Below are positions 687 through 47,841 of a stretch of DNA of 64,000 nt, piece by piece. Positions within the stretch are counted from its first letter, which is position 1. Every line of letters begins with the position of its first letter. Below the pieces are notes generated by a model that saw nothing but the letters and a program-made list of their open reading frames with translations, was not told where the DNA came from and ran no database searches. Made by a program: the position numbers and the translations under genes. This DNA is from a phage: the sequence record PQ724393.1. One strand, written 5' to 3'.

Positions 687-1580
687 TTATTTTAGAGCTA
701 ATAGTGCCGCGCGAAGCTTGTCACGTTGGGCTTCCATATTCTTGATGCTATTCAGAACGTCTTGAATACTCTTTTTCTCATCTTCAATCTGACCATTTAA
801 ACGGTGGATTGATTCCTGAATGCTATCTGCATAATAGGTCTCAATAGGTTTCATCGTAGGGTTAGTAACCACCAAAGAATTCTCGGGTTTAATTTTCCAA
901 TGATACGGTTCAGAATTGAATGGGCCTGGCACAGCGGTGGTTTTGAATTTGTCATAAGTAGCATACTGACCTACAGGCCCATATGACGCAGTGGAGATTC
1001 GACGTTCCATTTGTGGTTCCTTTTGTTGTGGTTGATAAGGGGCATAAGACAAAAGATATTCACGAGTTAGTTTAACATTAAAATACACTGCATCAGCCCG
1101 TCCAGAACAATCAGCATATTCATCTGTTGTAACCTTATATGATTCTACAGCCTTAATACGAGTCATTGCCTCTCTGAATAAGGTTTCGAATGCTTCACGA
1201 ATGGCCTTATTGCCTTTTGAGGTAGGACGGAAACGAACTTGAATACCGTCAGGCAGAATATTAATGACTAGGTTACGAGCCGTAAAATTAATATTCTTGA
1301 TATTAACAGGAACCGTAGAAATACGTCCTGCAGTAGCCAAGAGGTCTTTGATATTAGCTCGTAATGTTGCACCGAACAGGTGGGCCGGGCAACGGCAATA
1401 ATCGTTCAAAGAACTAATATAAGTCCCTTTACGTCCTACACCATAAGTATAATTACCATTACAAATATGACCAAAGTCTGCTAACCGGTCAATAGCGATA
1501 CGACGAGTAGTGTCATGGTCGTATATAGAGTATTCTTTACGTGTTTTAATGTTCATATTAAAGTCCAAATAATTTTTCAT
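687..1580 (-). CDS. hypothetical protein (297 aa)
   Basis: long ORF in tight minus-strand gene array; no recognisable motif. Confidence 0.6.
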   Translation of the reverse strand: MKNYLDFNMNIKTRKEYSIYDHDTTRRIAIDRLADFGHICNGNYTYGVGRKGTYISSLNDYCRCPAHLFGATLRANIKDLLATAGRISTVPVNIKNINFTARNLVINILPDGIQVRFRPTSKGNKAIREAFETLFREAMTRIKAVESYKVTTDEYADCSGRADAVYFNVKLTREYLLSYAPYQPQQKEPQMERRISTASYGPVGQYATYDKFKTTAVPGPFNSEPYHWKIKPENSLVVTNPTMKPIETYYADSIQESIHRLNGQIEDEKKSIQDVLNSIKNMEAQRDKLRAALLALK

Positions 1581-18836: not shown

Positions 18837-19796
18837 TTATTTTTCGAAAGGACGAATTAAATGATGGTTATCTTGGAAACGCTTGATGTAGTCGTTTTCA
18901 CCTAAAGTCTTATACATATTCACTACAGCTTGGTAGTTTTCCCAGGCGTACTCGCGGAACCAACCTGAAGTGATTGAGGTACACACTTTCTCAAGAGCCA
19001 TATAAAAACTTAATGATGGTGAAATATTGAAGTCATTAGGAACCTGTGAACGTTCTAGTGCCAGGACACAAGTTTCTTCATATACACCAGCCAGTTTAAT
19101 AGCTTCGGGCAAAGCCTCGAACTTCTCACGAGAGGTCATGACTTCAGAACCTTCCTTCATATAAAAGGTATATGCAGGGCGTCCAGCCAATGCTACTGCT
19201 TCATGAATAGAGTCATGGTCCAGCGTATAAATGGTATCATTAAAGAACGATGATTTGTTTACGTCCAATTTAGGGTGAGAATAGCTCAACGTTTCTTTTT
19301 GACGTTGCAACATAATTTCCCGGAGTTCTTCGTTCAGGGTGATACCTTTATTACGAAGGTATTTGATGTGGGACATAGTTTTCAAGAAGAACGGATTATT
19401 CTTCAGGAAACGATGAGAGGTTTTGATAGCCAGACAGATATCAGGCGTTGCCCAATAGAAACCAGTAAGACGGTCCTTTTTAATATGATTTTCAGCATAT
19501 TTCAGGAGACGATAACTTGAAGTGAAATCTTCGTCTTGAAGCTCGCCAGTAATTTCTCGTACGTTAGTCAGAGCACGGACAATATAAGCTTCAAAATAGG
19601 TTTCTTTACCATTGTACATACATTTAAAGGCCTGGACATCAGGATTATCCACAGGAACATGAGCGCCGAACATCCGGGCTTTAAAGTGATTCCATGAGCC
19701 TTGGTCGGCAATGAAATCCCAATCAGAATTTTCGATATGCTTACTTTCAATCAGACCAGCGTGGTGCAGTGCACGAGAACCAATAACTAGCATCAT
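18837..19796 (-). CDS. hypothetical protein (319 aa)
   Basis: long ORF; N-terminus LVIGSRALHH...SDWDF loosely NTase-like but spacing atypical. Confidence 0.55.
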   Translation of the reverse strand: MMLVIGSRALHHAGLIESKHIENSDWDFIADQGSWNHFKARMFGAHVPVDNPDVQAFKCMYNGKETYFEAYIVRALTNVREITGELQDEDFTSSYRLLKYAENHIKKDRLTGFYWATPDICLAIKTSHRFLKNNPFFLKTMSHIKYLRNKGITLNEELREIMLQRQKETLSYSHPKLDVNKSSFFNDTIYTLDHDSIHEAVALAGRPAYTFYMKEGSEVMTSREKFEALPEAIKLAGVYEETCVLALERSQVPNDFNISPSLSFYMALEKVCTSITSGWFREYAWENYQAVVNMYKTLGENDYIKRFQDNHHLIRPFEK

Positions 19797-19998
19797 AATA
19801 TTTTCCTCATTAATAAAGACGAGTTACTTCATATTTACCCAGTTCAGATTTTTTTGCTTCAATACGCGTTGCGGCTAGATTAGCAGCCTCTAGTGAAGAA
19901 AATTGGACCACTTGGGAAGTATTCTGCCTTACGCCACCTTGTGGGTGAGTAACAAAAACAATAAGAACATTATACATAATATTTTCCTCAGAGTAAAC

Positions 19999-20238
19999 TT
20001 AAATTTCAGCAACGTAATCGTTATGCAATTCCCACATATCATCAGAATTATTCTTAATGATAGGAATTATCTCATTAGAGATTTCTTCTGCATAAGGGTC
20101 ATTGATACAGTGGGCATCTTCAAAACGAACACCGTAATCAGACTTCTTATAGGCAAAGCCATAAATCTTTTTAAACTTGGCACGACTAATTCGTACCGGC
20201 TCATCAGACTTATCAGACAATGGAGAGTAATACCACAT
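19999..20238 (-). CDS. hypothetical small protein (79 aa)
   Basis: short ORF. Confidence 0.4.
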   Translation of the reverse strand: MWYYSPLSDKSDEPVRISRAKFKKIYGFAYKKSDYGVRFEDAHCINDPYAEEISNEIIPIIKNNSDDMWELHNDYVAEI

Positions 20239-20281
20239 ATGTTCTCCTCATGTTTGTGTAGGGTAATAGTAACATGATTTT

Positions 20282-20626
20282 CTAGAGTTGTACATCACTT
20301 CTGCAATATTCTAAAAATAATTTATCGTTGTCTACGGTATCCCAACGACGCCAAGATGGGTTCCAGACCAAAGCGTTGTCACCACAATCATTGAGCTTAA
20401 AATGGTCGTAGTACATAGCTATATGTCTGGTTTCGTCACCAGAGAACCCTAGTATAGGCTCACCATGAGTATGATACATATGATGGTGCATTGAGAGGTC
20501 GCATTTGTAAAACATCTCACGTTTACCACGAATGAACAAGAAAGCTTGACCATTCATATAGAATTCTTTATCTGTTTTCAAAAGATATTTGAATACCGAA
20601 TCTTTATGCATAAGTCCTCCTACCAC
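20282..20626 (-). CDS. hypothetical protein (114 aa), His-rich segment
   Basis: ORF; MHHHMYHTHGE segment. Confidence 0.45.
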   Translation of the reverse strand: MVGGLMHKDSVFKYLLKTDKEFYMNGQAFLFIRGKREMFYKCDLSMHHHMYHTHGEPILGFSGDETRHIAMYYDHFKLNDCGDNALVWNPSWRRWDTVDNDKLFLEYCRSDVQL

Positions 20627-20641
20627 ATCCTTGTGGTTAAA

Positions 20642-20869
20642 TTATTTTCCTAACGAAACACGAGTAGGTTTTTTACCAAAATAGTCTTCATAAGACCCAT
20701 CTAAACGACCTGCTTTAGACCGACAATATGAATCGTACTTTTTGTAATAAGTCATCTCGGTATTATAACGCGGGTGTCTATCAGCCATAATAATACTTAA
20801 CGGCCAACCTTTGGCATAATCGCGAAGACCATTTATTTTACGAATGTATCTTTTCTTTAATTTTAGCAT
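20642..20869 (-). CDS. hypothetical small basic protein (75 aa)
   Basis: short ORF overlapping upstream stop. Confidence 0.4.
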   Translation of the reverse strand: MLKLKKRYIRKINGLRDYAKGWPLSIIMADRHPRYNTEMTYYKKYDSYCRSKAGRLDGSYEDYFGKKPTRVSLGK

Positions 20870-21087
20870 GAGCTCGGATACCAGATTTTACCATCAGAAC
20901 GAGCAACGAAGGTTCGGCCGGCTTCTTCGCCGTAACAAGAGCTATTCAGCCAATCTTCAAGACGAACTTCACCATCATAATCATCAAGCTCAACACCAAA
21001 ATCTTGTGCAGAAGCCATATCTTTTACTTTCTTATACAGCGCAGCCAGTTCAAGAGCAGCTTTTTCTAATTCATTAATATCAGACAT
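20863..21087 (-). CDS. tandem-family small protein 1 (C-terminus ...KIWYPSSC)
   Basis: member of five tandem paralogs with W-x-[SNP]-S-S..C C-terminus. Confidence 0.5.
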   Translation of the reverse strand: MSDINELEKAALELAALYKKVKDMASAQDFGVELDDYDGEVRLEDWLNSSCYGEEAGRTFVARSDGKIWYPSSC

Positions 21088-21096
21088 TTTATTTCC

Positions 21097-21327
21097 TTAG
21101 CAAGACATAGAGGAGTTAAACCAGAAACCCTGGCCATCATTGATACCGTAATCACTGCGAATCCAGTCATATTCTTCGTATTCTTCGCTAGAAGCCGGAA
21201 TATAACGCTGGAAACGGTCTGCGGCGTGTAAATTAAAAATTTCGCCGGTTTTATCGGCCAGCTGCTCACCTTCACAGATTAGTGCACGGATTTGGTCTTC
21301 GATTTCTTTAACAGTTTTAGAAGTCAT
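21097..21327 (-). CDS. tandem-family small protein 2 (C-terminus ...GFWFNSSMSC)
   Basis: 9-nt spacer to neighbour; conserved junction TGC-TAA-GGAA..ATG. Confidence 0.5.
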   Translation of the reverse strand: MTSKTVKEIEDQIRALICEGEQLADKTGEIFNLHAADRFQRYIPASSEEYEEYDWIRSDYGINDGQGFWFNSSMSC

Positions 21328-21336
21328 TTTATTACC

Positions 21337-21534
21337 TTAGCATTCGTAAGAGGAGGACACCCAAGAGGTACCACTAATTGTAATACAACCATTATAAAGC
21401 GTGATATGACGTTCCAGGTCACGAACACCGTCGATATAGATATCAGCTTCTTCGCGTTCTTCTTTACAAATCTGGATAACGTTTTCAATAGCTGCGGCTG
21501 CAGTACGGATTGCACAATCTAGTTCACGAGACAT
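21337..21534 (-). CDS. tandem-family small protein 3 (C-terminus ...TSWVSSSYEC)
   Basis: same family. Confidence 0.5.
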   Translation of the reverse strand: MSRELDCAIRTAAAAIENVIQICKEEREEADIYIDGVRDLERHITLYNGCITISGTSWVSSSYEC

Positions 21535-21543
21535 AATAATTCC

Positions 21544-21825
21544 TTAACATTCAGAAGAAGAGGATACCCATCCACCATTTTCTAGGCTGGTAGTGTAATC
21601 ATGTTGGTTTACAATAGCGTACTGAGCTTCACCGTATTCTTCCCAGTGGGCCAGGTCAGCTTTCAAGGCGCCAGGAGAATAATAGTCACCGCCCATACCG
21701 CGAGCAGGGTATATATTAAAATGAGTCTCATATTTGTTGGCAATTTCCTCGGCACGACGAATAGCTTTATGGATATCATTTACTGCAGCAGCCAGCTCTT
21801 TATTTTTACGGTAATCATTCATCAT
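21544..21825 (-). CDS. tandem-family small protein 4 (C-terminus ...GGWVSSSSEC)
   Basis: same family. Confidence 0.5.
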   Translation of the reverse strand: MMNDYRKNKELAAAVNDIHKAIRRAEEIANKYETHFNIYPARGMGGDYYSPGALKADLAHWEEYGEAQYAIVNQHDYTTSLENGGWVSSSSEC

Positions 21826-21834
21826 AGCGTTTCC

Positions 21835-22125
21835 TTAGCACATTGCCGAAGAGGAGACCCAAGCACCAACTGTAACGACGCCATTTTCAACTTCACCACC
21901 ATTGTTTTCAATTTCATCTTTAAACCACTGGGAGCATTCATAACCAACAGGGTAGTATGTACGTCCTGAGCCATAATCACCTGTTCCGAATTGAATACCG
22001 TACTTATCGGCAATAGCTTCACATTTGGATTCGATGGTATCCACTTTATTCAGAAGAGCATAGATAGCCTTTTCTGCAGATTTCTCGTCATTGTATTCAG
22101 GGATTTCAATTTCAATTTTATTCAT
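21835..22125 (-). CDS. tandem-family small protein 5 (C-terminus ...GAWVSSSAMC)
   Basis: same family. Confidence 0.5.
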   Translation of the reverse strand: MNKIEIEIPEYNDEKSAEKAIYALLNKVDTIESKCEAIADKYGIQFGTGDYGSGRTYYPVGYECSQWFKDEIENNGGEVENGVVTVGAWVSSSAMC

Positions 22126-22475
22126 GATTTACATTCCTTAATAAAGGTTTCAAGGTCATTACGTTTGGTTTGTTTTACATACTCATTATAATTAGCCATC
22201 TCTAAAGCATATCTCTTTTTACGTGGCTTGTTTATTTTATTAGTTTGGGCGATATCAAAGACCAATGGGATAAAGTATCCTATTAAAGCCGGAACCCAAA
22301 TCCATGCGAGGCTCATATCTTCAAACGGATGGCGAGGCATACCATTAATAATCCCGCCGACAAGAAATCCAATTATCCCTGCAACCATACTAGTAGCAAT
22401 GCCGAGGAATAATGAAATAGAGATATCGTAATCTGCTAATGCGTAACCAGGGTCGGTTTTACTAGGCTTATACAT
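22122..22475 (-). CDS. membrane protein (about 117 aa)
   Basis: start set to internal ATG (MYKPSK) overlapping upstream stop; two TM segments. Confidence 0.45.
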   Translation of the reverse strand: MYKPSKTDPGYALADYDISISLFLGIATSMVAGIIGFLVGGIINGMPRHPFEDMSLAWIWVPALIGYFIPLVFDIAQTNKINKPRKKRYALEMANYNEYVKQTKRNDLETFIKECKS

Positions 22476-23004
22476 TTTGGACCTCTTTGGCGTATTCGCG
22501 GCATTCAGCAATAAAACGATTAAGCTTACGTTGTTGTTTACGACTTTCTAATGTGTATTCGTTGGCTAAAATAATAAGCTCATCTTTATCGTAGTTTTTG
22601 ATATCCGAATAACTCGGGCGACGGTCGATCATTCCAAATACATCACCATTTTCTAAAGCTACATAGCATACTAAATGGTAATCATCGTCTGCCATATTAA
22701 GAAGCACACAATCAGCGCTCTCGTTTAAAGAATATACTGAATAACGTAGTCCGGCGAATTCCACTCGTTGAATAGCCAGATTTACGTCAATAATTTCCAA
22801 AGCATCTTCAAAAGAAAGGTCTTCAGCTAAAGCAAAAATAAAAGGTAATTTGGTAGTATCGCCACGGCTAGATGTTCTGCTTAAGAAATCGTTTGAATAG
22901 CCTAGGTCTTGGCGAATTCTATAAAGAACTGAATTGGTTTCATGGGAAAGACCGCTATTTTTAAACCAATCAATATTGGATATCAAATTATCATATAAGC
23001 TCAT
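22468..23004 (-). CDS. hypothetical protein (178 aa)
   Basis: ORF. Confidence 0.5.
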   Translation of the reverse strand: MSLYDNLISNIDWFKNSGLSHETNSVLYRIRQDLGYSNDFLSRTSSRGDTTKLPFIFALAEDLSFEDALEIIDVNLAIQRVEFAGLRYSVYSLNESADCVLLNMADDDYHLVCYVALENGDVFGMIDRRPSYSDIKNYDKDELIILANEYTLESRKQQRKLNRFIAECREYAKEVQNV

Positions 23005-23025
23005 AATATTCTCCTCTCCTCCAAA

Positions 23026-23043
23026 TAGGGAGACCGAAGTCTC
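23026..23043 (-). terminator. hairpin, possible weak terminator
   Basis: GGGAGAC-CGAA-GTCTCCC; weak U-run. Confidence 0.4.
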
Positions 23044-23052
23044 CCAGTAACA

Positions 23053-23646
23053 TTACTTAAGTGAATTAATGTAGTCTTCGATATCAGCAGAAGTCGTATC
23101 CATTCCAACTTGCGGGCCTTTAAACGTTTCTACACGAAGTAGGGTATCTTCAATATCAATCTTAGTCAATGCGGCGATTTCAACAACATCATCGGCAGTA
23201 GCAATACCCAGGGCAGCCATATTACGAGTTTCACGAATGTACTCAAGCTTAACCGCTAGTTCCTGGCGAGAGTCATCAAGTTCCTTGACCTTAAGCTTAA
23301 TTTCATTACGCATTTCAACATAATCATCGGCTTTCTTACGAAGTTGAGTAGCCGTACGACGATAAAGGAGGCCAAGTTTAGCATGCACCTGAACATCAGC
23401 ACCTTCTTTAATCAGTTTACGAATTTCACGTTCTTTAGAACTAGCCAGTTGGTCCTTTTCGTTAGCGAGTTCACGAATACGTTTTTCTTCATTCACGGAC
23501 TTAACATGAGCAGTCTGGAGTTCAGTGATTTTATCAATCAGAGTAGAAGCCGCTTTGGTGTATTGGTCTTCGATTGACAGGTTCTGAGACATTGCTGTAC
23601 CCAGTTTAGAACGGATGAATTCAACGATTTTCTTTAAAGTGTTCAT
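23053..23646 (-). CDS. coiled-coil protein (197 aa)
   Basis: heptad-rich, charged; no specific motif. Confidence 0.55.
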
Positions 23647-23689
23647 AGTATTTCCTTCAGTTGGTTAACGTTTTGTAATCCATGAGGAC

Positions 23690-23719
23690 ATTATACCCTG
23701 TCCTCTGAGGGATGTAAAC
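23690..23719 (-). promoter_or_regulatory. sigma70-like promoter (GTTTAC-N18-GTATAAT)
   Basis: minus strand GTTTACATCC...GTATAATG upstream of gene at 23646. Confidence 0.5.
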
Positions 23720-23721
23720 AT

Positions 23722-24120
23722 TTATTTCATTTTTGCGAGGCAAATTTCATTGGCTTCCCATTGAGCTTGCTTAATAATAGCTTTGGATACAGGAGCCCTT
23801 TGGCCATAAGTTTTTGACGTTGAGAGAACAATACATTTGTTTGCTTCATTATGCCAGCCCCATGATTTTTCGCCATGGGTGCCTTTAACTACAGCTGACA
23901 CCTCAACAGAGCAACCACCATCAGAAATCTTGGTTTCGACAATCCATTCATTTCTCTCAGCAGCTTCAAGTTCCAATCTAGTTTTTTCTTCATACATCGC
24001 GGCCCAATCAGTTTTTGCCAAGTTGAAAGTAAGAGCTTTCTCTAATTCTTTGGCATATTTTTGTTGTTCAGGTGTTAATGAATTATACAACTCTTGCATT
24101 TCTTTATCTTCGATATTCAT
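23722..24120 (-). CDS. hypothetical protein (132 aa)
   Basis: ORF with GAGGAG RBS. Confidence 0.5.
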   Translation of the reverse strand: MNIEDKEMQELYNSLTPEQQKYAKELEKALTFNLAKTDWAAMYEEKTRLELEAAERNEWIVETKISDGGCSVEVSAVVKGTHGEKSWGWHNEANKCIVLSTSKTYGQRAPVSKAIIKQAQWEANEICLAKMK

Positions 24121-24145
24121 TATGATCTCCTCAAATTATGGGCTC

Positions 24146-24175
24146 ATAATATCTTAATCATGGGCCCATGTAAAC
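24146..24175 (-). promoter_or_regulatory. sigma70-like promoter (GTTTAC-N18-TATTAT)
   Basis: upstream of 23722..24120. Confidence 0.45.
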
Positions 24176-24178
24176 GTT

Positions 24179-24457
24179 TTATTTCATATTATTGAAATAA
24201 TCTTCCGCATCAAAATCGTTATCATGATAAACTTTGGTAGACAATTTAACATAACCTTCGGCGGCGAACATATTAACCACAACCTTTACAGTATACCATT
24301 GTCCATCATCATTACCCATTACTGCATAGGTTTCAAATATGGGATGGTCATCACCGATAACTTTAATATCGTTAACTGTAGCACCAAATTCTTCAGGAAC
24401 GCATTTCATAAAGAAATTAAACAATTCACCATAATTATCCATTTTACTCTCCTTCAC
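24179..24457 (-). CDS. hypothetical small acidic protein (92 aa)
   Basis: ORF with GGAG RBS. Confidence 0.5.
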   Translation of the reverse strand: MKESKMDNYGELFNFFMKCVPEEFGATVNDIKVIGDDHPIFETYAVMGNDDGQWYTVKVVVNMFAAEGYVKLSTKVYHDNDFDAEDYFNNMK

Positions 24458-24477
24458 ACTGTTGTTTTGATAGGTCT

Positions 24478-24506
24478 ATAGTATCATGTTCTACGAAAGA
24501 GTAAAC
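24478..24506 (-). promoter_or_regulatory. repeated promoter-hairpin element (GTTTAC-N17-TACTAT)
   Basis: core TTGATAGGTCTATAGTATCA. Confidence 0.5.
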
Positions 24507-24530
24507 ATCTTTTTTAAACTTTTTAGAAAC

Positions 24531-24558
24531 AAAAAAGGCCCAACCTTTCGGAAGGGCC
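24531..24558 (-). terminator. rho-independent terminator (minus strand)
   Basis: A-run then GGCCC..TTCGG..GGGCC hairpin on plus strand. Confidence 0.6.
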
Positions 24559-24650
24559 TAGAATCAGTTCTTGTAGAACCGGAATGGGTTTATGTGGAAG
24601 GCTAACATAGCTTTTATTTTAAAAGTTTCATATATTTCTCTAAGTTAACC

Positions 24651-24670
24651 AAAAAAGCCCCAGACGGGGC
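24651..24670 (-). terminator. rho-independent terminator (minus strand)
   Basis: AAAAAA-GCCCC-AGA-CGGGGC immediately after IP-like gene stop. Confidence 0.7.
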
Positions 24671-24675
24671 TTTCG

Positions 24676-25140
24676 TTATTTGATTTGTTTAGCAGACCAG
24701 ATACGGTCTTTGATGATTTTCTGAATATCTTCAACATACTCTAAGTCGTGAGCATGCGGATTATCTTTGAAGCTATGTGCTCGTGCCAGTTTCTGGCCTT
24801 CTGTTTTGATTACTAAAAGCTCTTTAAGAATTGCTTCATACTTAGAAATGATTCCTTTAGCGATATTTTTTTCTTGAGCGGCTTTAGGGTCCGCTTTTGA
24901 CGCAGGTGCTTTACCTGTAGCTTTCTGGAACAATTCACCTGATGCAGCTAGGCTTTTAAAAACTCGGCTAACAGTATTAGCATTAGTAAAACCTTCGGCT
25001 TTAAAATCTTTAATAAAACGGAAACGTTCTTCATCAGAGGCGTCTTTGTAAGAATATTTACCTGCTTGAATTGCTGCAATCGCGGCGGCTTTTACATCTG
25101 AACTAGATTGTTCGGTCAAAAATTCATTGTAAGTTTTCAT
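24676..25140 (-). CDS. internal-protein-like protein with capsid targeting sequence (MKTYNEFLTE)
   Basis: CTS-like N-terminus; 154 aa, Lys/Ala-rich; located beside tRNA cluster, not at a canonical T4 ip locus. Confidence 0.6.
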   Translation of the reverse strand: MKTYNEFLTEQSSSDVKAAAIAAIQAGKYSYKDASDEERFRFIKDFKAEGFTNANTVSRVFKSLAASGELFQKATGKAPASKADPKAAQEKNIAKGIISKYEAILKELLVIKTEGQKLARAHSFKDNPHAHDLEYVEDIQKIIKDRIWSAKQIK

Positions 25141-25181
25141 TATTATTTCCTAAGTTAATTAACTTATCTATTTATTATGCC

Positions 25182-25209
25182 AAAAAGCCCCAACCTTTCG
25201 GAAGGGGCC
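25182..25209 (-). terminator. rho-independent terminator (minus strand)
   Basis: AAAAA-GCCCC..TTCGG..GGGGCC hairpin. Confidence 0.65.
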
Positions 25210-25589
25210 ATGCCTTGCGGTAACCTTGTCGGGGTTCCACCTGCTAGGCAAGTGTTTGTACGAAACGCCAGGATTCGAACCCGGTTATTAAGCAGTTGAC
25301 GCTACTCAATATTTTTAAAAGGCCATATCTCGACCATATCCGAACGTTCCGTCAAAAACGCTACTCGGCTTACGGCAAAGATATTTCCTCGAATCGATAA
25401 TTAGGTGCGCCGTTTCTGCTGTGATGTAAGGGGACATTAACAGATCGTAAAGATTTGTTAATGCCAGTCCTTACTCAGGGAACATCAGTCCGACGACTTA
25501 CCGGTAGCGACCCGGTTTCTTGTTTGTTGCGCCGGTGAATGCTGGTAATCAGTCTTCATACGACGGCTTGACTATATAATAGTCTTCAT

Positions 25590-30825: not shown

Positions 30826-31428
30826 ATGCTCTTCTCATTTTTCGATCCTATCGATTACGAATCAAAAACAGTCAAGCCGGATTCAGGCTCATTAACAAAT
30901 GCCGATGTACTGAGCGTGCCGATGACTGATATATTTAGAAATTATAAAGAATATTTTGATAAAGTGGCTAAAAACTATACACTAAAGACTTATTATATCA
31001 ACGGGGCCCCTCGTCCAGAAGAATTGGCTAATCAACTTTATGGTAATGTCCAATTATATTGGGTTTTATTGATGTGTAATAATATATACGACCCTTATTA
31101 CGGCTGGATTACAGGCCAAGAAGTTGCATATCAAGCGGCAATCCAAAGATATTCTACTGCAGGTGGCAATCAAGTTCTTTATCATGTTAATGAAAAGGGT
31201 GAGAAATTCTGGAATCTTGTTAATACTCCAGAAAACCCATATACTTGGTATGATAAAGGTGATACAGAAAAACGTTATCCTCAATATGAGGGCCCTTTGG
31301 CTGCAGTAGATATTTACGAGGATGCTATTCGTAAAAATGAATATAAGCGCGAAATAAAGATTGTGGACCCTAATGATATTGAGTCCTTTATTTCTGCCCT
31401 TATTCGCGAAATGGAGAAAGCCCTCTAA
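30826..31428 (+). CDS. 53: baseplate wedge protein gp53
   Basis: MLFSFFDPIDYE...; T4 gp53-like throughout. Confidence 0.9.
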   Translation: MLFSFFDPIDYESKTVKPDSGSLTNADVLSVPMTDIFRNYKEYFDKVAKNYTLKTYYINGAPRPEELANQLYGNVQLYWVLLMCNNIYDPYYGWITGQEVAYQAAIQRYSTAGGNQVLYHVNEKGEKFWNLVNTPENPYTWYDKGDTEKRYPQYEGPLAAVDIYEDAIRKNEYKREIKIVDPNDIESFISALIREMEKAL

Positions 31429-44755: not shown

Positions 44756-46287
44756 TGTCTACAAATACACTAAAACACATAAGTGATAAATCAGAATTTA
44801 AAACATTCGACCCTACCGGGTCGAATTTTGACCCCTCTATTACTAATGTCCAGGATGCATTGGCGTCTATTTCCGCTATAGGTGTTACAGGTAATATACC
44901 TTCGGCTTCTGAAACAGAACAGGGTATTATTAGATTAGCGACCCAACAAGAAGTTATTGATGGCACCGATACTTTCTCTGCAGTAACTCCGGCCACTTTA
45001 AAAGGCCGTTTAGATATTCCTACTCAAGCAACAGAAACTTATGTAGGTATCACCCGTTATGCCACTAATGGTGAAGCCATTGCTGGAACAGAAACCCAGG
45101 CTGCAATCGTAGCATCGTCTTTGAAAGCTACTATAGATTATACATTCACCAATCGTTTAGCCACAGAGAACACTACAGGCGTACTCAAGATTTCAACCCT
45201 GCCGGCCGCTCTAGCAGGTACAGATGATACGACGGCAATGACACCGCTGAAAACCGCCCAGGCAATTGGCGCTGCTACATCGGCATTACCGACTTATGCC
45301 AGTGCTACTCAAACTACTGAAGGTATTGTTAGAATCGCAACAAATGCTGAAGTGGCAAATGGCACATTGACTAATGGTGTGGCAATTTCTCCTTCTGGGT
45401 TAAAATCTTTAACTTCTACCCAAGGACGGGCAGGTATTATTAGATTAGCCACTCCACAAGAAGCTTCTGCTGGCAGTGATTCTAATATAGCTTTATCTCC
45501 TTCAACTCTTCTTTCTCGTACTGGTACTACCGGAAGAGTGGGCGTTGTTAAATTAACAACTACGGTCGGTTCTGGTGATGGAAGCACTGCATTGGCATAT
45601 AATGCTAACGTTATTTCTACCACAGGCGGCACCATTAATGGTACTTTAAACGTTAACGGTACTTTACGTCGCAATGGGCGCGATGTTGTTACTATCGACC
45701 AATTAAAAGATTCTGTCCCTATCGGTACTATTGTTATGTGGGGTGGCCAGATTAATAATATCCCTGCAGGTTGGGCCGTTTGTGATGGCGGTAACTCTGG
45801 TGAACAAGGATTCCGAAATGTAGTTGGTAGTAAATGGGGTTCAACTGGAGCACGTCCTGACTTCCGTGGATTATATCCTAGAGGTGCAAACCAGACTAAC
45901 GACGGTGGATTAAGAGAATGGGATGCCAACGTTAGAATTAGAGATGCCAAAGGTAATGATGCCAAAGGTAAACCTAAATTAGGCGTGGGTTGCGGTTCAT
46001 ATGGCCATGGTACTGTACAAGCCCAGCAGCTTCGTTTCCATAAACACGCTGGTGGTTTTGGCGAACACGACAACGCAGGTGCATTTGGTAATACCGTTCG
46101 TTCCAACTTTGCCGGTACTCGTAAAGGGCTGGACTGGGATAACCGTTCCTACTTTACAAACGAAGGATATGAAATTGACGGTTCTGGTTCACGAGATTCA
46201 AGAACTACTCTAAACAGTGAAGGGTTGGTTGGTAACGAAAACCGTCCTTGGACTATGTCCATCCTATTCATTATTAAAGTTGCTTAA
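44755..46287 (+). CDS. 12: short tail fiber protein gp12
   Basis: repetitive N-terminal fibre region; size and position as T4 gp12. Confidence 0.85.
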   Translation: MSTNTLKHISDKSEFKTFDPTGSNFDPSITNVQDALASISAIGVTGNIPSASETEQGIIRLATQQEVIDGTDTFSAVTPATLKGRLDIPTQATETYVGITRYATNGEAIAGTETQAAIVASSLKATIDYTFTNRLATENTTGVLKISTLPAALAGTDDTTAMTPLKTAQAIGAATSALPTYASATQTTEGIVRIATNAEVANGTLTNGVAISPSGLKSLTSTQGRAGIIRLATPQEASAGSDSNIALSPSTLLSRTGTTGRVGVVKLTTTVGSGDGSTALAYNANVISTTGGTINGTLNVNGTLRRNGRDVVTIDQLKDSVPIGTIVMWGGQINNIPAGWAVCDGGNSGEQGFRNVVGSKWGSTGARPDFRGLYPRGANQTNDGGLREWDANVRIRDAKGNDAKGKPKLGVGCGSYGHGTVQAQQLRFHKHAGGFGEHDNAGAFGNTVRSNFAGTRKGLDWDNRSYFTNEGYEIDGSGSRDSRTTLNSEGLVGNENRPWTMSILFIIKVA

Positions 46288-46296
46288 GGAAATAAA

Positions 46297-47841
46297 ATGA
46301 TTGACAAACTGAGTATTAAAGAACTTCCGTTTGTCGATGGTGTACCCGATGCATCCCAAGAGCGTATCCGTTGGATACGCAATGGAGAATGTATTGAAGG
46401 AGCCACGACTAAATACGGTCACGACGGTAATTTGAATGCCCCTGCTTTAGGAGTACAAACCAACGTAGTTAGATTAGAAGAAAACAGTATAGCTTCTAAA
46501 GACAAAATTAACGAGCTTGTGGATAACGTTAATTTGATTAATGAAGCCCTAGATATTTCTACTGATACGGGTGTTATTCAGCAAATTGAAAAGAACCGAG
46601 TTGATATACTGGCTGTGGATGCAAAGGCTTCCGAAACTAAACAAGAATTAGGTGATTTAACCGTTAATTTTAATTTTTTAGAAGAAGATGTAGGTTATTA
46701 CGACCCGTCTTTAGATGGCCCATATCTCACTGTCAGAGAAAATATAAATCTTCTTAAATCTGAAATTGGTCATTATGCGAACCAGGATATAAACAGCCAA
46801 CCGCTTCCTCCAGGTGAAACTTCTGAAGCCACCGGCATGAAACGACGCATTATGGATAATACCAGTGCTATTGTCGACCATTCACAACGTATAGATACCC
46901 TTGAAAAGAATTACGAAGATTCCGATGTAGGGCAGCTCGGGCTTAAGATTAACGAAATTCGTGAAGAACTAGGTCCTCATATCGATACCGTAGGTAAACA
47001 ACCAACGTATACCAGGATTTCTACTCTTGAAACTGCTGCTGTAAGCTTTAACGAATCAATAGATTCTATCAAAACCAGTATAGGTTTTAATAAAGGCCCT
47101 ATTGATACAAGAGTAACCACGCTGGAAACTAAAACTTCCACTTTAGAAAACACTGTTAATAACGGTTTGACCCCTAGAGTTACTGCAGTGGAAACCGCTA
47201 TCGGCGAGGCAGGTACCCCTACTTCTATTAATGGTAGATTAGGTGGCTTACGTACTGATGTTAATGAACTAAAAACTATAGTAGGTGCCAGTTCGTCTGA
47301 AGGGCTTCGTTTCCAGGTTTCTGATATTGACCGTAAAATTGGCGCCGATGTAAGTCCGGCTGCAGGAACAATTAATAAACGTTTGAATGACCTTACGACT
47401 CAAGGTAATACTTCGGCCTCAACTATTCAGGATTTACAGGCTGAAATTGGTAATAACCAAACCGGTATTAAAGGTTCTATTCTTAAAATTACCAACCAAA
47501 TTGAAGGAACAAACCCTAACGGTAGCACTGTAGAAGAACGAGGGTTAATAAACTCTGTTAAAGGCCTTGAAGCTCAAATGCCTACTAAATTGGGCGATGC
47601 CCCTGCTGATGGTAAATTGTACGGGCGTAAAGATGCTGCATGGGCTGAAATCCTTGGCACTACAGAAATTGATACGGTCAAAGCTTCTTTATTGGAGGCT
47701 GAAGGTAAAATCACTGCACTAGAAACTGAGTTGGCTAAACGCCCTCCTGTTGCTCCTGCGGCTGATGGACTCCCGTATGTTCTGGTTGATAACGCATGGG
47801 TGCTATTGTCAGATTTTGTGACTTTAAACCCGGCACCATAA
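46297..47841 (+). CDS. wac: fibritin (whisker, wac)
   Basis: long coiled-coil with C-terminal foldon-like GLPYVLVDNAWVLLSDF. Confidence 0.85.
   Translation: MIDKLSIKELPFVDGVPDASQERIRWIRNGECIEGATTKYGHDGNLNAPALGVQTNVVRLEENSIASKDKINELVDNVNLINEALDISTDTGVIQQIEKNRVDILAVDAKASETKQELGDLTVNFNFLEEDVGYYDPSLDGPYLTVRENINLLKSEIGHYANQDINSQPLPPGETSEATGMKRRIMDNTSAIVDHSQRIDTLEKNYEDSDVGQLGLKINEIREELGPHIDTVGKQPTYTRISTLETAAVSFNESIDSIKTSIGFNKGPIDTRVTTLETKTSTLENTVNNGLTPRVTAVETAIGEAGTPTSINGRLGGLRTDVNELKTIVGASSSEGLRFQVSDIDRKIGADVSPAAGTINKRLNDLTTQGNTSASTIQDLQAEIGNNQTGIKGSILKITNQIEGTNPNGSTVEERGLINSVKGLEAQMPTKLGDAPADGKLYGRKDAAWAEILGTTEIDTVKASLLEAEGKITALETELAKRPPVAPAADGLPYVLVDNAWVLLSDFVTLNPAP

What the first reader, a model, noticed from the sequence alone, without database searches (positions are those of the whole stretch)
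20863..22125. Five tandem small paralogs with a conserved extreme C-terminus (G-x-W-[VFY]-[SNP]-S-S-x-x-C-stop) and conserved 9-nt junctions
Consecutive minus-strand ORFs of 74, 76, 65, 93 and 96 aa have dissimilar bodies but all end in W-x-x-S-S-x-x-C (WYPSSC, WFNSSMSC, WVSSSYEC, WVSSSSEC, WVSSSAMC). Each stop is followed by GG[AT]A and then 5 nt to the next ATG. At the RNA level the Ser codons are UCCUCU-like and can pair with the downstream UAAGGA Shine-Dalgarno. The conservation could therefore reflect a translational-coupling hairpin, a shared protein C-terminal tag (for example a targeting or modification signal ending in Cys), or both. I do not recognise this as a described T4 family.
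Basis: seen in the sequence. Interest (0 to 1): 0.6.

Follow-up and report, generated by a model that had tools for sequence, protein, structure and literature searches.

The report
Cys-ended phage mini-proteins beside putative nucleotidyltransferase
Five neighbouring small genes of a T4-like phage belong to a widespread, unstudied family of acidic mini-proteins that all end in Trp-x-Ser-Ser-x-x-Cys, and this family almost always sits just upstream of a putative nucleotidyltransferase gene, which suggests an undescribed two-part phage module.

Summary
Five consecutive minus-strand genes (96, 93, 65, 76 and 74 aa) all end in W-x-x-S-S-(x-x)-C-stop.

The conservation acts on the protein, not the RNA. 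Across 70 family genes, the invariant Ser positions use all six Ser codons. The junctions fold no better than shuffled sequence. The TAAGGA-N6-ATG junction is a generic stop-plus-Shine-Dalgarno arrangement that also occurs five times elsewhere in the window.

The genes belong to a large, uncharacterised family found only in phage sequences (PHROG 899/4882). It has at least 238 clusters at 50% identity. Members are acidic, and the consensus is helix–ADEHGLEF–YGMGGTYYP–variable insert–GGWVSSSxxC-COOH. No Pfam, NCBIfam, PDB or literature match was found.

The new finding is gene linkage. The family lies on the same strand within 3 kb, usually directly upstream, of a DUF7277–DUF7275 protein (window 18837–19796). 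This holds in 75 of 80 independent viral loci and across unrelated phage lineages. T4 has neither gene. The partner's N-terminus carries a GS…DxD…E pattern typical of polymerase-β-type nucleotidyltransferases, but profile tests did not confirm that assignment.

Best reading: the mini-proteins are partners, either substrates or adaptors, of this enzyme, and the Ser-Ser…Cys tail is the interface. Function is untested.

The parts
21835..22125 (-). Paralog 1, 96 aa, ends GAWVSSSAMC. Its start ATG overlaps the stop of the upstream membrane-protein gene (ATGA).
   Evidence: phrog_899 E 9e-24. Family HMM E 5.6e-23.
21544..21825 (-). Paralog 2, 93 aa, ends GGWVSSSSEC. The terminal Cys is its only Cys.
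   Evidence: phrog_899 E 6e-20. AlphaFold2 pLDDT 86: helix 9-32, strands 35-37, 46-49 and 84-88 (the WVSSS strand), with a floppy last 3 residues.
21337..21534 (-). Paralog 3, 65 aa, ends TSWVSSSYEC. It is divergent: it lacks the YGMGG segment and shares only the C-terminal module and an N-terminal helix. It is absent from some close relatives.
   Evidence: phrog_4882 E 2e-36. hhalign aligns only the last 9 residues, probability 77%. The AF2 model is poor, pLDDT 66.7. The gene is missing in WG01 and IME540.
21097..21327 (-). Paralog 4, 76 aa, ends GFWFNSSMSC. It is the most variable slot among close relatives.
   Evidence: phrog_899 E 5e-15. Family HMM E 1.1e-18. pN 0.175 against 0.03-0.06 for the other four genes.
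20863..21087 (-). Paralog 5, 74 aa, ends KIWYPSSC. It carries a second, internal copy of the motif (DWLNSSCYGEE, residues 45-55). Its stop overlaps the next gene's ATG (ATGCTAA).
   Evidence: phrog_899 E 4e-10. hhalign against the family: 91.7% probability over 60 columns..
21088..21096 (-). One of four 9-nt intergenic spacers (GGAAATAAA). The others are at 21328-21336, 21535-21543 and 21826-21834. In each, a TAA stop runs directly into a GGA/GGT Shine-Dalgarno sequence.
   Evidence: The same TAAGGW-N6-ATG junction occurs 5 times elsewhere in the window, including an identical copy at 46285-46299.
18837..19796 (-). Conserved partner gene, 319 aa, with DUF7277 (N-terminal; hhIGS...SDWD...E pattern) and DUF7275 (C-terminal) domains. 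It is a putative nucleotidyltransferase.
   Evidence: Pfam DUF7275 E 3.5e-77 and DUF7277 E 1.8e-26. phrog_2141. Invariant D25 and D27, near-invariant G6, S7, A9 and E69. Linked to the small family in 75 of 80 viral loci and.
19810..20869 (-). Four small unrelated ORFs (75, 109-114, 79 and 55 aa) that lie between the array and the partner gene in this phage lineage.
   Evidence: PHROGs 7065, 9796, 3723 and 20278, all of unknown function. In many other phages the small gene abuts the partner directly.
23690..23718 (-). Strong sigma-70-type promoter-like site (TTTACA-17-TATAAT, 11 of 12 matches), upstream on the same strand. No minus-strand terminator-like site was found in the scanned region (19500-25500), which covers the stretch down to the array.
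   Evidence: This is a consensus match only, so an early transcription class is inferred, not shown.

Best explanation
SHOWN:
- The five genes are tandem paralogs of a large family of small acidic cytoplasmic proteins found only in phage sequences. One of the five, the 65-aa gene, is a divergent or partial member.
- In the confident AlphaFold2 model of the 93-aa paralog, the core is an N-terminal helix packed against a three-stranded sheet. W-x-S-S-S forms the last strand, and the final x-x-Cys-COOH is a flexible tail. The 'dissimilar bodies' are a hypervariable insert between strands 2 and 3.
- The C-terminal motif is conserved at the amino-acid level.
- The uniform 9-nt junctions are the ordinary T4-type stop-plus-Shine-Dalgarno packing.
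- The family is tightly linked, on the same strand and nearly always immediately upstream, to one gene: a DUF7277-DUF7275 protein. This holds in unrelated phage lineages.

INFERRED:
- The mini-proteins and the DUF7277-DUF7275 protein work together as a module.
- The partner's N-terminal domain has the hG-S-x(10-19)-D-x-D ... E pattern of polymerase-beta-superfamily nucleotidyltransferases, so it is probably an NMP-transferring enzyme.
- The invariant Ser-Ser...Cys-COOH tail is the element that docks into the enzyme or is modified by it.
- The variable insert gives each paralog a different specificity. On this view the paralogs act as interchangeable adaptors or substrates, most plausibly in early host takeover or counter-defence.
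For: - Motif and paralogy.
- Family breadth: 238 representatives at E<=1e-3 in a search of 1.84 billion proteins. 177 of 185 fetched sequences end in Cys, and 5 more have Cys as the penultimate residue.
- Family properties: W-to-C-terminus spacing is fixed at 7 residues in 157 of 169. The terminal Cys is the only Cys in 80 of 169. Median pI is 4.45.
- Protein-level selection: all six Ser codons, both Cys codons and all three stops occur, with variable junctions. Pooled pN/pS is 0.08 in the tail against 0.25 in the bodies.
- Fold: pLDDT 86, with WVSSS as strand 84-88.
- Phage restriction: the back-translated YGMGGTYYP pattern has 0 hits in 185,579 bacterial and archaeal genomes and 13 hits in viral contigs, including 185-389 kb phages.
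- Linkage from the small-protein side: a DUF7275 gene lies downstream in nearly every locus with enough DNA.
- Linkage from the partner side: 75 of 80 IMG/VR loci carry 1-6 family members on the same strand within 3 kb, and 74 of them carry members upstream only.
- Linkage across lineages: also seen in Phapecoctavirus ESCO13, Otagovirus M5.1, Acinetobacter Lazarusvirus AM101, Stenotrophomonas phage Mendera and the Erwinia jumbo phage Kaldavass.
- Co-absence: T4 lacks both genes genome-wide.
- Partner motif: invariant D25 and D27, near-invariant G6, S7, A9 and E69.
- Independent annotation: GenBank annotators call homologues '(putative) nucleotidyltransferase'.
Against: - No experiment or structure links the two proteins. 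Gene adjacency in phages can also reflect co-inheritance of a cassette.
- In this window, four unrelated ORFs (about 1 kb) separate the array from the partner.
- Five of 80 partner loci lack a detectable member. Distant homologues that match only the DUF7275 C-terminal part or match weakly, in Vibrio, Streptomyces and Gordonia phages, have none nearby.
- No profile method available confirmed the nucleotidyltransferase assignment. These were all negative: a lenient Pfam scan of 39 members, a PDB profile search, NCBIfam, and hhalign against AadA, KNTase and the NrdC.11 family.
- The roles proposed for the Ser-Ser and Cys residues are pure inference.
- A copy number of 1-6 is unusual for a fixed enzyme subunit.
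Confidence: 0.5

Rival explanations
1. RNA-level constraint. The UCCUCU Ser codons pair with the downstream UAAGGA Shine-Dalgarno sequence to form a translational-coupling hairpin, and this is why the gene ends look alike.
For: - In this window, four of five tails use TCC TCT-type codons followed by TAAGGA/T.
- A 4-bp UCCU/AGGA pairing appears in the minimum-free-energy folds of two junctions.
- Among close relatives, synonymous diversity in the last 8 codons is low for the 96- and 76-aa genes, ranking 6 of 89 and 4 of 69 sliding windows.
Against: - None of the five junctions folds better than shuffles (z +0.27 to +1.39).
- The other three genes have ordinary or high tail pS, ranking 24 of 86, 38 of 58 and 52 of 67.
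- Family-wide, the invariant Ser positions use TCC, TCT, TCA, TCG, AGC and AGT.
- The motif persists with TAATG overlaps, TGA or TAG stops, and long spacers.
- The junction is generic in this genome.
- No Rfam match was found.
Confidence: 0.03
2. Autonomous binders. The mini-proteins act alone as early host-takeover or anti-defence inhibitors. The variable insert recognises targets, and the C-terminal Cys acts as a metal or active-site ligand or as an oligomerisation point. On this view, linkage to DUF7275 is only cassette co-inheritance.
For: - The proteins are small and acidic (median pI 4.45), tandemly amplified, and carry a hypervariable insert.
- They lie in the hyperplastic e-to-tRNA early region, downstream of an early-type promoter-like site.
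- Copy number varies between close relatives.
- Many members carry a second internal W-x-x-S-S-C motif, which could supply a second thiol.
Against: - Linkage to one specific gene survives across phage lineages that share little else. These are Tevenvirinae, Twarogvirinae, Phapecoctavirus, Otagovirus, Menderavirus and jumbo phages. It is mostly direct adjacency.
- No match to any PADLOC, Pfam or PDB family was found to indicate a target.
Confidence: 0.25
3. Covalent substrates or precursors. The tandem genes are substrate proteins, analogous to RiPP precursors or to HepT in MntA-HepT systems. Their Ser-Ser or terminal Cys is covalently nucleotidylylated, or otherwise modified, by the adjacent enzyme.
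For: - Multiple tandem, hypervariable genes with one short invariant terminal motif sit directly upstream of a single enzyme-like gene. This is the typical layout of precursor-plus-modifier clusters.
- The tail is flexible in the model (last 3 residues pLDDT 43).
- Polymerase-beta-type nucleotidyltransferases transfer NMP to hydroxyl groups. This rests on established knowledge of GlnE, GlnD and MntA.
Against: - The 93-aa paralog, the only one confidently modelled, is a folded domain and not a leader-core peptide.
- No dehydratase, cyclase, LanD-type decarboxylase, radical-SAM enzyme or protease gene is conserved nearby.
- The nucleotidyltransferase fold of the partner is unconfirmed.
Confidence: 0.15
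4. Artefact. The ORFs are not real genes, or the motif is a chance or low-complexity coincidence.
For: One spurious 35-aa ORF elsewhere in the window (31083-31190, + strand) also matches the loose motif.
Against: - Five adjacent ORFs each have a Shine-Dalgarno sequence and ATG start, and all are annotated in relatives.
- Purifying selection is evident (pN/pS 0.08-0.25).
- HMM matches to hundreds of homologues exist.
- There are 0 motif matches among 3229 T4 ORFs.
Confidence: 0.01

Closest known systems
PHROG families 899 and 4882 (also pVOG VOG2412-2415 and VOG3790): catalogued phage protein clusters of unknown function
   Same: Four of the five proteins match phrog_899 (E 4e-10 to 9e-24) and the fifth matches phrog_4882 (E 2e-36). 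The dhaeg genome record carries the pVOG labels. These clusters are the same family.
   Different: The clusters carry no function, motif description or context. I found no mention in the searchable literature of the C-terminal W-x-S-S-x-x-C-COOH signature, the split of the array across two PHROGs, or the linkage to DUF7277-DUF7275.
Phage minimal nucleotidyltransferases of the NrdC.11 / PF10127 type, reported to make competitor cyclic dinucleotides against TIR-STING (Ho et al., bioRxiv 10.1101/2022.06.09.495361)
   Same: The partner protein has a similar N-terminal catalytic-looking pattern: GS-x-A-h ... SDWD, against their GS-x-AY[GAN]T-x4-SDxD. The catalytic mutant they used was SDWD to AAWA. 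Both are phage accessory genes in early regions.
   Different: There is no detectable profile similarity (hhalign probability below 1%). The C-terminal domain differs (DUF7275). The spacing between GS and DxD is longer in the T4-like members. The NrdC.11 type is present in T4, and in the Dhakavirus relatives it occurs alongside the partner gene. No obligate small-protein neighbour is described for the NrdC.11 type.
MNT-HEPN (MntA-HepT) two-gene modules, in which a minimal nucleotidyltransferase AMPylates its small partner protein (recalled knowledge, not tested here)
   Same: Both are two-gene modules pairing a small protein with a polymerase-beta-type nucleotidyltransferase-like enzyme, and in both the obvious hypothesis is covalent nucleotidylylation of the partner.
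   Different: - Here the small gene comes first and is amplified 1-6 times.
- The mini-protein in the AF2 model is a helix packed against a three-stranded sheet, with no Rx4-6H motif recognised by inspection of the family consensus.
- An R-x6-H-like stretch in DUF7275 is not conserved, for example in this window it reads RFLKNNPF.
- The acceptor would be Ser or Cys rather than Tyr.
- The setting is a lytic phage, not a toxin-antitoxin locus.
Polymorphic internal proteins of T-even phages (IPI, IPII, IPIII, Ip10 and others)
   Same: Both are tandem, fast-evolving small proteins in the same genome neighbourhood (near e and denV). In both, a short invariant terminal peptide is attached to dissimilar bodies.
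   Different: Internal proteins share an N-terminal capsid-targeting sequence that is cleaved by the prohead protease. Here the conserved element is C-terminal and is part of the fold. The five N-termini are unrelated to each other (MNKIEIEI, MMNDYRKN, MSRELDCA, MTSKTVKE, MSDINELE), and none matches the N-terminal capsid-targeting sequence as I recall it (not tested). Packaging into the capsid was not tested.
Carrier proteins with a C-terminal cysteine 'swinging arm' (SoxY GGCGG-COOH; DsrC/TusE): an analogy from recalled knowledge
   Same: Both are small proteins whose functional group is an invariant Cys at or next to the free C-terminus on a flexible tail.
   Different: There is no sequence or fold similarity. 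No sulfur-relay genes lie nearby. The neighbouring enzyme looks like a nucleotidyltransferase, not a sulfurtransferase.

Membership tests
W-x-S-S-x-x-C mini-protein family (PHROG 899/4882) | Significant profile match over the whole protein | tested here: met
   The 96-, 93- and 76-aa proteins match at E 1e-18 to 1e-23. The 74-aa protein gives phrog_899 E 4e-10 and hhalign 91.7%. The 65-aa protein aligns only at the tail, so its membership is partial.
W-x-S-S-x-x-C mini-protein family (PHROG 899/4882) | W-x-[SPA]-S-S-(x-x)-C at the extreme C-terminus | tested here: met
   All five have it. 177 of 185 fetched family members end in Cys. The spacing is fixed in 157 of 169.
W-x-S-S-x-x-C mini-protein family (PHROG 899/4882) | Same-strand neighbourhood with a DUF7277-DUF7275 gene | tested here: met
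   The partner is at 18837-19796, about 1 kb downstream on the same strand. The same arrangement holds in 75 of 80 viral loci.
Translational-coupling or SD-sequestering RNA hairpin | Structure more stable than shuffled sequence at each junction | tested here: not met
   z-scores are +0.38, +1.39, +0.71, +0.72 and +0.27.
Translational-coupling or SD-sequestering RNA hairpin | Synonymous sites of the pairing codons conserved | tested here: not met
   All six Ser codons are used family-wide. Among close relatives the tail is a low-pS outlier in only 2 of 5 genes.
Polymerase-beta-superfamily nucleotidyltransferase (for the partner protein) | hG[GS]-x(9-13)-D-h-[DE]-h motif plus a third downstream carboxylate | tested here: met
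   Alignment of 39 homologues shows near-invariant G6, S7 and A9, invariant D25 and D27, and near-invariant E69. The GS-to-D gap is about 10-13 residues in short members and 17 in this window's protein. This rests on inspection of a pattern only.
Polymerase-beta-superfamily nucleotidyltransferase (for the partner protein) | Profile or fold similarity to established nucleotidyltransferases | tested here: inconclusive
   Negative results came from Pfam at E<=10 on 39 members, a PDB profile search, NCBIfam, and hhalign against AadA, KNTase and NrdC.11. Some GenBank records call homologues 'nucleotidyltransferase'.
RiPP precursors or AviCys-type C-terminal Cys peptides | Conserved neighbouring maturases (dehydratase, LanD-type decarboxylase, radical-SAM enzyme, protease or exporter) | tested here: not met
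   None appear among annotated or Pfam-scanned neighbours in the window and in diverse loci.
T-even internal proteins | Conserved N-terminal capsid-targeting sequence with a prohead-protease cleavage site | tested here: not met
   The five N-termini are unrelated to each other. Comparison with the [10 protein letters not shown]-type signal rests on recalled knowledge.
Phd/YefM-type antitoxin fold | Significant structural similarity | tested here: inconclusive

The most novel reading that the evidence does not exclude
The mini-proteins are covalent acceptors, or protein primers, for the adjacent nucleotidyltransferase-like enzyme. Their invariant Ser-Ser/Cys-COOH tail becomes nucleotidylylated, or extended with nucleotides. 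This would give a phage-made set of protein-nucleotide conjugates, and the hypervariable inserts would aim them at different host or defence targets. That would be a previously undescribed class of phage effector module.
Probability: 0.12. Interest if true: 0.85.

Novelty: new variant of a known kind. Interest (0 to 1): 0.55.

Why it matters
T4-like and jumbo phages carry hundreds of small early genes of unknown function, and very few come with a testable handle. This family offers three:
- A chemically suggestive invariant tail: Trp, then Ser-Ser, then a free C-terminal Cys that is often the only Cys in the protein.
- A hypervariable insert and tandem amplification, which are typical of arms-race genes.
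- A nearly obligatory enzyme-like neighbour.

If the pair is a working module, it would assign roles to two domains of unknown function (DUF7277 and DUF7275) and to two PHROGs that occur in hundreds of therapeutic-type coliphages and in Klebsiella, Acinetobacter, Aeromonas and Pseudomonas phages. It could also reveal a new way in which phages use protein nucleotidylylation or adaptor swapping.

It also matters for annotation. Several GenBank records label these mini-genes 'tail completion protein', 'major capsid protein' or 'prohead scaffold', and I found nothing that supports those labels.

Tried and rejected
**Mini-proteins: no informative match**
- Pfam, NCBIfam and PADLOC scans found nothing.
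- A PDB sequence-profile search returned only designed helical bundles matching the N-terminal helix.
- Literature searches for motif strings, PHROG, DUF and ORF names found nothing relevant.

**Searches that failed or were uninformative**
- The search for related loci with the 100-sequence family alignment failed because no stretch was conserved enough. I replaced it with a back-translated YGMGGTYYP pattern.
- The AlphaFold2 model of the 65-aa paralog was poor (pLDDT 66.7).
- Longer family members showed no informative N-terminal domains.
- Four metagenomic context look-ups mostly returned short contigs. One of them revealed the DUF7275 neighbour.

**Readings considered and rejected**
- RNA hairpin.
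- A T4 homologue: six-frame HMM scans of the whole T4 genome were negative. T4 tk.1 gave a weak hit at E 0.006-0.07, judged to reflect helix similarity only.
- Zinc finger or intramolecular disulfide: half of the family has a single Cys.
- Internal-protein capsid tag: the N-termini are unrelated.

**Partner protein**
- Attempts to confirm the nucleotidyltransferase fold by Pfam (lenient scan), PDB profile, NCBIfam and hhalign were all negative or inconclusive.
Full report
**1. What the window is.** Region 20600-22600 is 96.7% identical to Escherichia phage fDHCT2. It is 86-95% identical to JS98-type phages of genus Dhakavirus and to Shigella phage SP18. In annotated relatives the five ORFs lie on the early-gene strand in the variable stretch between e.2-like and e.4-like genes, close to e, denV, Ip10 and the tRNA cluster. 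All are labelled hypothetical. A strong sigma-70-type promoter-like site (TTTACA-17-TATAAT) sits upstream on the same strand at 23718-23690, and no minus-strand terminator-like site was found in the scanned region. Nolan et al. 2006 (PMC1524935) described such ORFs, absent from T4, as clustered among early genes and probably co-expressed with them.

The five minus-strand ORFs have the stated coordinates and lengths, and they end in AWVSSSAMC, GWVSSSSEC, SWVSSSYEC, FWFNSSMSC and IWYPSSC. Four junctions read TAA-GG[AT]-N6-ATG. In the fifth, the next gene's ATG overlaps the Cys and stop codons.
- Of 1265 stop-to-stop ORFs of at least 25 aa in the window, 6 match a loose form of the motif. Five are these adjacent genes, and one is a 35-aa spurious ORF.
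- T4 has 0 matches among 3229 such ORFs.

**3. RNA or protein constraint?** I collected 70 distinct family genes from the window and from more than 20 related loci.
- The two invariant Ser positions use all six Ser codons: TCC 27, AGC 17, TCA 11, TCT 10, AGT 4 and TCG 1 at the first position, and TCT 35, TCA 14, TCC 7, AGC 6, AGT 5 and TCG 3 at the second.
- Cys uses TGC 54 times and TGT 16 times. Stops are TAA 63, TGA 4 and TAG 3.
- The sequence after the stop ranges from TAAGGA-type junctions to TAATG overlaps and long spacers.
- The five junction RNAs fold no better than dinucleotide shuffles, with z-scores of +0.27 to +1.39.
- TAAGGW-N6-ATG occurs 9 times in the window against 1.67 expected. 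Five of those are outside the array, and one (46285-46299) is identical to an array junction. The junction is therefore the phage's general stop-plus-Shine-Dalgarno packing.
- Rfam finds nothing in the region.

There is one caveat. Among nine close Dhakavirus orthologue sets, pooled synonymous diversity is lower in the last 8 codons than in the gene bodies (0.17 against 0.30). Sliding-window ranks are 6 of 89, 24 of 86, 38 of 58, 4 of 69 and 52 of 67. Other long runs without synonymous change exist in the same genes, which looks like a recombination mosaic. The signal is therefore inconsistent across the five genes and disappears at larger evolutionary distance. Purifying selection on the protein is clear, with pN/pS of 0.08 in the tail and 0.25 in the bodies.

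**4. What the proteins are.** Four of the five hit phrog_899 and the 65-aa protein hits phrog_4882. Both PHROGs have unknown function. Pfam, NCBIfam and PADLOC give nothing.

A profile built from 39 close relatives, searched against 1.84 billion representatives, found 238 clusters at E<=1e-3. Nearly all matches end exactly at the protein's C-terminus.
- 177 of 185 fetched sequences end in Cys, and 5 more have Cys as the penultimate residue.
- The consensus is M...A.EIADEHGLEFSF..AYGMGGTYYP-(variable, acidic, often with extra W-x-S-S repeats)-GGWVSSSxxC.
- The W-to-C-terminus spacing is 7 in 157 of 169.
- The terminal Cys is the only Cys in 80 of 169, which rules out an intramolecular disulfide or zinc site as the general explanation.
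- Median pI is 4.45.

AlphaFold2 models the 93-aa paralog confidently (pLDDT 86). It has a helix at 9-32 and strands at 35-37, 46-49 and 84-88. The last strand is WVSSS. A helical insert lies between strands 2 and 3, and the last three residues are floppy. The 'dissimilar bodies' are therefore mainly this insert.

The family appears confined to phages. The back-translated YGMGGTYYP pattern has 0 hits in one genome from each of 185,579 bacterial and archaeal species, and 13 hits in viral contigs, including phages of 185-389 kb. Tandem pairs and triples are common elsewhere too. The whole T4 genome lacks the family.

**5. The new lead: a conserved neighbour.** One metagenomic locus showed a DUF7277+DUF7275 protein directly after the small gene. 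The window encodes the same protein at 18837-19796 on the same strand, with DUF7275 at E 3.5e-77 and DUF7277 at E 1.8e-26.
- A homologue lies downstream on the same strand in almost every locus that was fetched through the small family and has enough DNA. It often abuts the small gene directly.
- In the reverse test, I fetched 80 IMG/VR loci through the partner protein alone. Of these, 75 carry 1-6 family members on the same strand within 3 kb, and 74 of them carry members upstream only. The exceptions are one T4-like contig and one small clade.
- The pairing recurs in lineages with otherwise different genomes: Phapecoctavirus ESCO13 (three members directly upstream), Pseudomonas Otagovirus M5.1, Acinetobacter Lazarusvirus AM101, Stenotrophomonas phage Mendera (members downstream) and the Erwinia jumbo phage Kaldavass.
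- Distant homologues in Vibrio, Streptomyces and Gordonia phages that match only the DUF7275 C-terminal part, or match weakly, have no member nearby.
- T4 lacks both genes.

**6. What the partner may be.** It is phrog_2141, of unknown function, with no PDB or NCBIfam match. It occurs in 734 phage records. An alignment of 39 homologues shows an N-terminal hhIGS-x(10-19)-D-x-D with a later conserved Glu. D25 and D27 are invariant, and G6, S7, A9 and E69 are nearly so. This is the signature pattern of polymerase-beta-superfamily nucleotidyltransferases. The C-terminal domain is highly conserved, with invariant K125, H128, R165, H194, D195, H198, E240, E241, R249 and C272.

Some GenBank annotators call homologues '(putative) nucleotidyltransferase'. 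I could not confirm the fold.

Ho et al. studied phage nucleotidyltransferases that make competitor cyclic dinucleotides (bioRxiv 10.1101/2022.06.09.495361). Those enzymes have the NrdC.11-type motif and form a different family, which T4 and the Dhakaviruses also encode.

**7. Interpretation.**
- Shown: the motif is a protein feature. It comprises the last strand of a small fold plus a free Cys tail, in a large, tandemly amplified, acidic family restricted to phages and genetically coupled to one enzyme-like gene.
- Inferred: the two act together. The Ser-Ser...Cys tail is the docking or acceptor element, and the variable insert diversifies specificity.
- Open: whether the mini-proteins are substrates, adaptors or regulators, and whether the module serves host takeover or counter-defence.
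- Rivals: autonomous binders with coincidental linkage; covalent precursor-like substrates; the RNA hairpin, which is essentially excluded.

**8. Novelty and score.** The protein clusters are catalogued but uncharacterised. I found no description in the searchable literature of the C-terminal signature or of the linkage to DUF7277-DUF7275. I rate this a new variant of a known kind, namely a small-protein-plus-nucleotidyltransferase-like module in a phage accessory region. Interest is moderate to good. The finding is not yet mechanistically surprising, but it is specific and directly testable.

Noticed in passing
window 18837-19796 (-): A 319-aa DUF7277+DUF7275 protein with a nucleotidyltransferase-like GS...DxD...E pattern. 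It is the near-obligatory same-strand neighbour of the mini-protein family across many phage lineages.
   Followed up: yes
window 31083-31190 (+): A 35-aa stop-to-stop ORF ending CRWQSSSLSC also matches the loose motif. It is probably a chance match on the other strand and shows no family HMM hit.
   Followed up: partly
window 46285-46299 (+): The junction TAAGGAAATAAAATG is identical to the one at 21085-21099. It is one of five TAAGGW-N6-ATG junctions outside the array, which shows that the 9-nt spacer is a genome-wide habit.
   Followed up: partly
L021 (JS98 NC_010105.1) 799-1017 (-): The RefSeq record of the type phage JS98 leaves the fourth paralog unannotated, although it matches the family HMM at E 4e-16.
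   Followed up: partly
L022, L025, L026 (vB_EcoM_005, ABTNLsp5, IME540): Several GenBank records label these mini-genes or their partner 'tail completion protein', 'major capsid protein' or 'prohead assembly scaffold protein'. Nothing I found supports these labels, and they look like transferred mis-annotations.
   Followed up: partly
L024 (WG01) and L026 (IME540) compared with window 21337-21534: Copy number differs among close relatives. The 65-aa gene is missing, and the 93-aa gene is followed directly by the 76-aa-type gene through the same TAAGGAAATAAAATG junction. This suggests deletion or unequal exchange between the repeated tail and junction sequences.
   Followed up: partly
window 21835-22125 and 21544-21825 (orthologue comparison): Long runs with no synonymous differences alternate with highly diverged runs among Dhakavirus orthologues (second half of the 96-aa gene, middle of the 93-aa gene). 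This is a recombination-mosaic pattern.
   Followed up: no
window 20935-20967 (-), residues 45-55 of the 74-aa protein: An internal second copy of the motif, DWLNSSCYGEE, recurs as W-x-x-S-S-C-Y-G-E-E in many distant family members. Some members carry three W-x-S-S-x-C repeats, for example P0161.
   Followed up: partly
L039 6436-7446 (T4 nrdC.11): T4 and the Dhakaviruses encode a separate PF10127 nucleotidyltransferase, NrdC.11, with motif GS-x-LYGT-x4-SDVD. Many records mislabel it 'thioredoxin'. It is unrelated by profile comparison to the DUF7277 partner.
   Followed up: partly
L037 (Stenotrophomonas phage Mendera) 3706-4252: Here the family members lie downstream of the DUF7275 gene rather than upstream. 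This was the only reversed order among the annotated phage loci examined individually.
   Followed up: no
L031 (ESCO13), L034 (phi-ST2), L032 (M5.1), L033 (AM101): The DUF7275 neighbourhood often also holds Sir2-family, DprA-like, DNA methyltransferase, MazG-like pyrophosphatase or ADP-ribosyltransferase genes. This is consistent with an accessory or counter-defence region.
   Followed up: no
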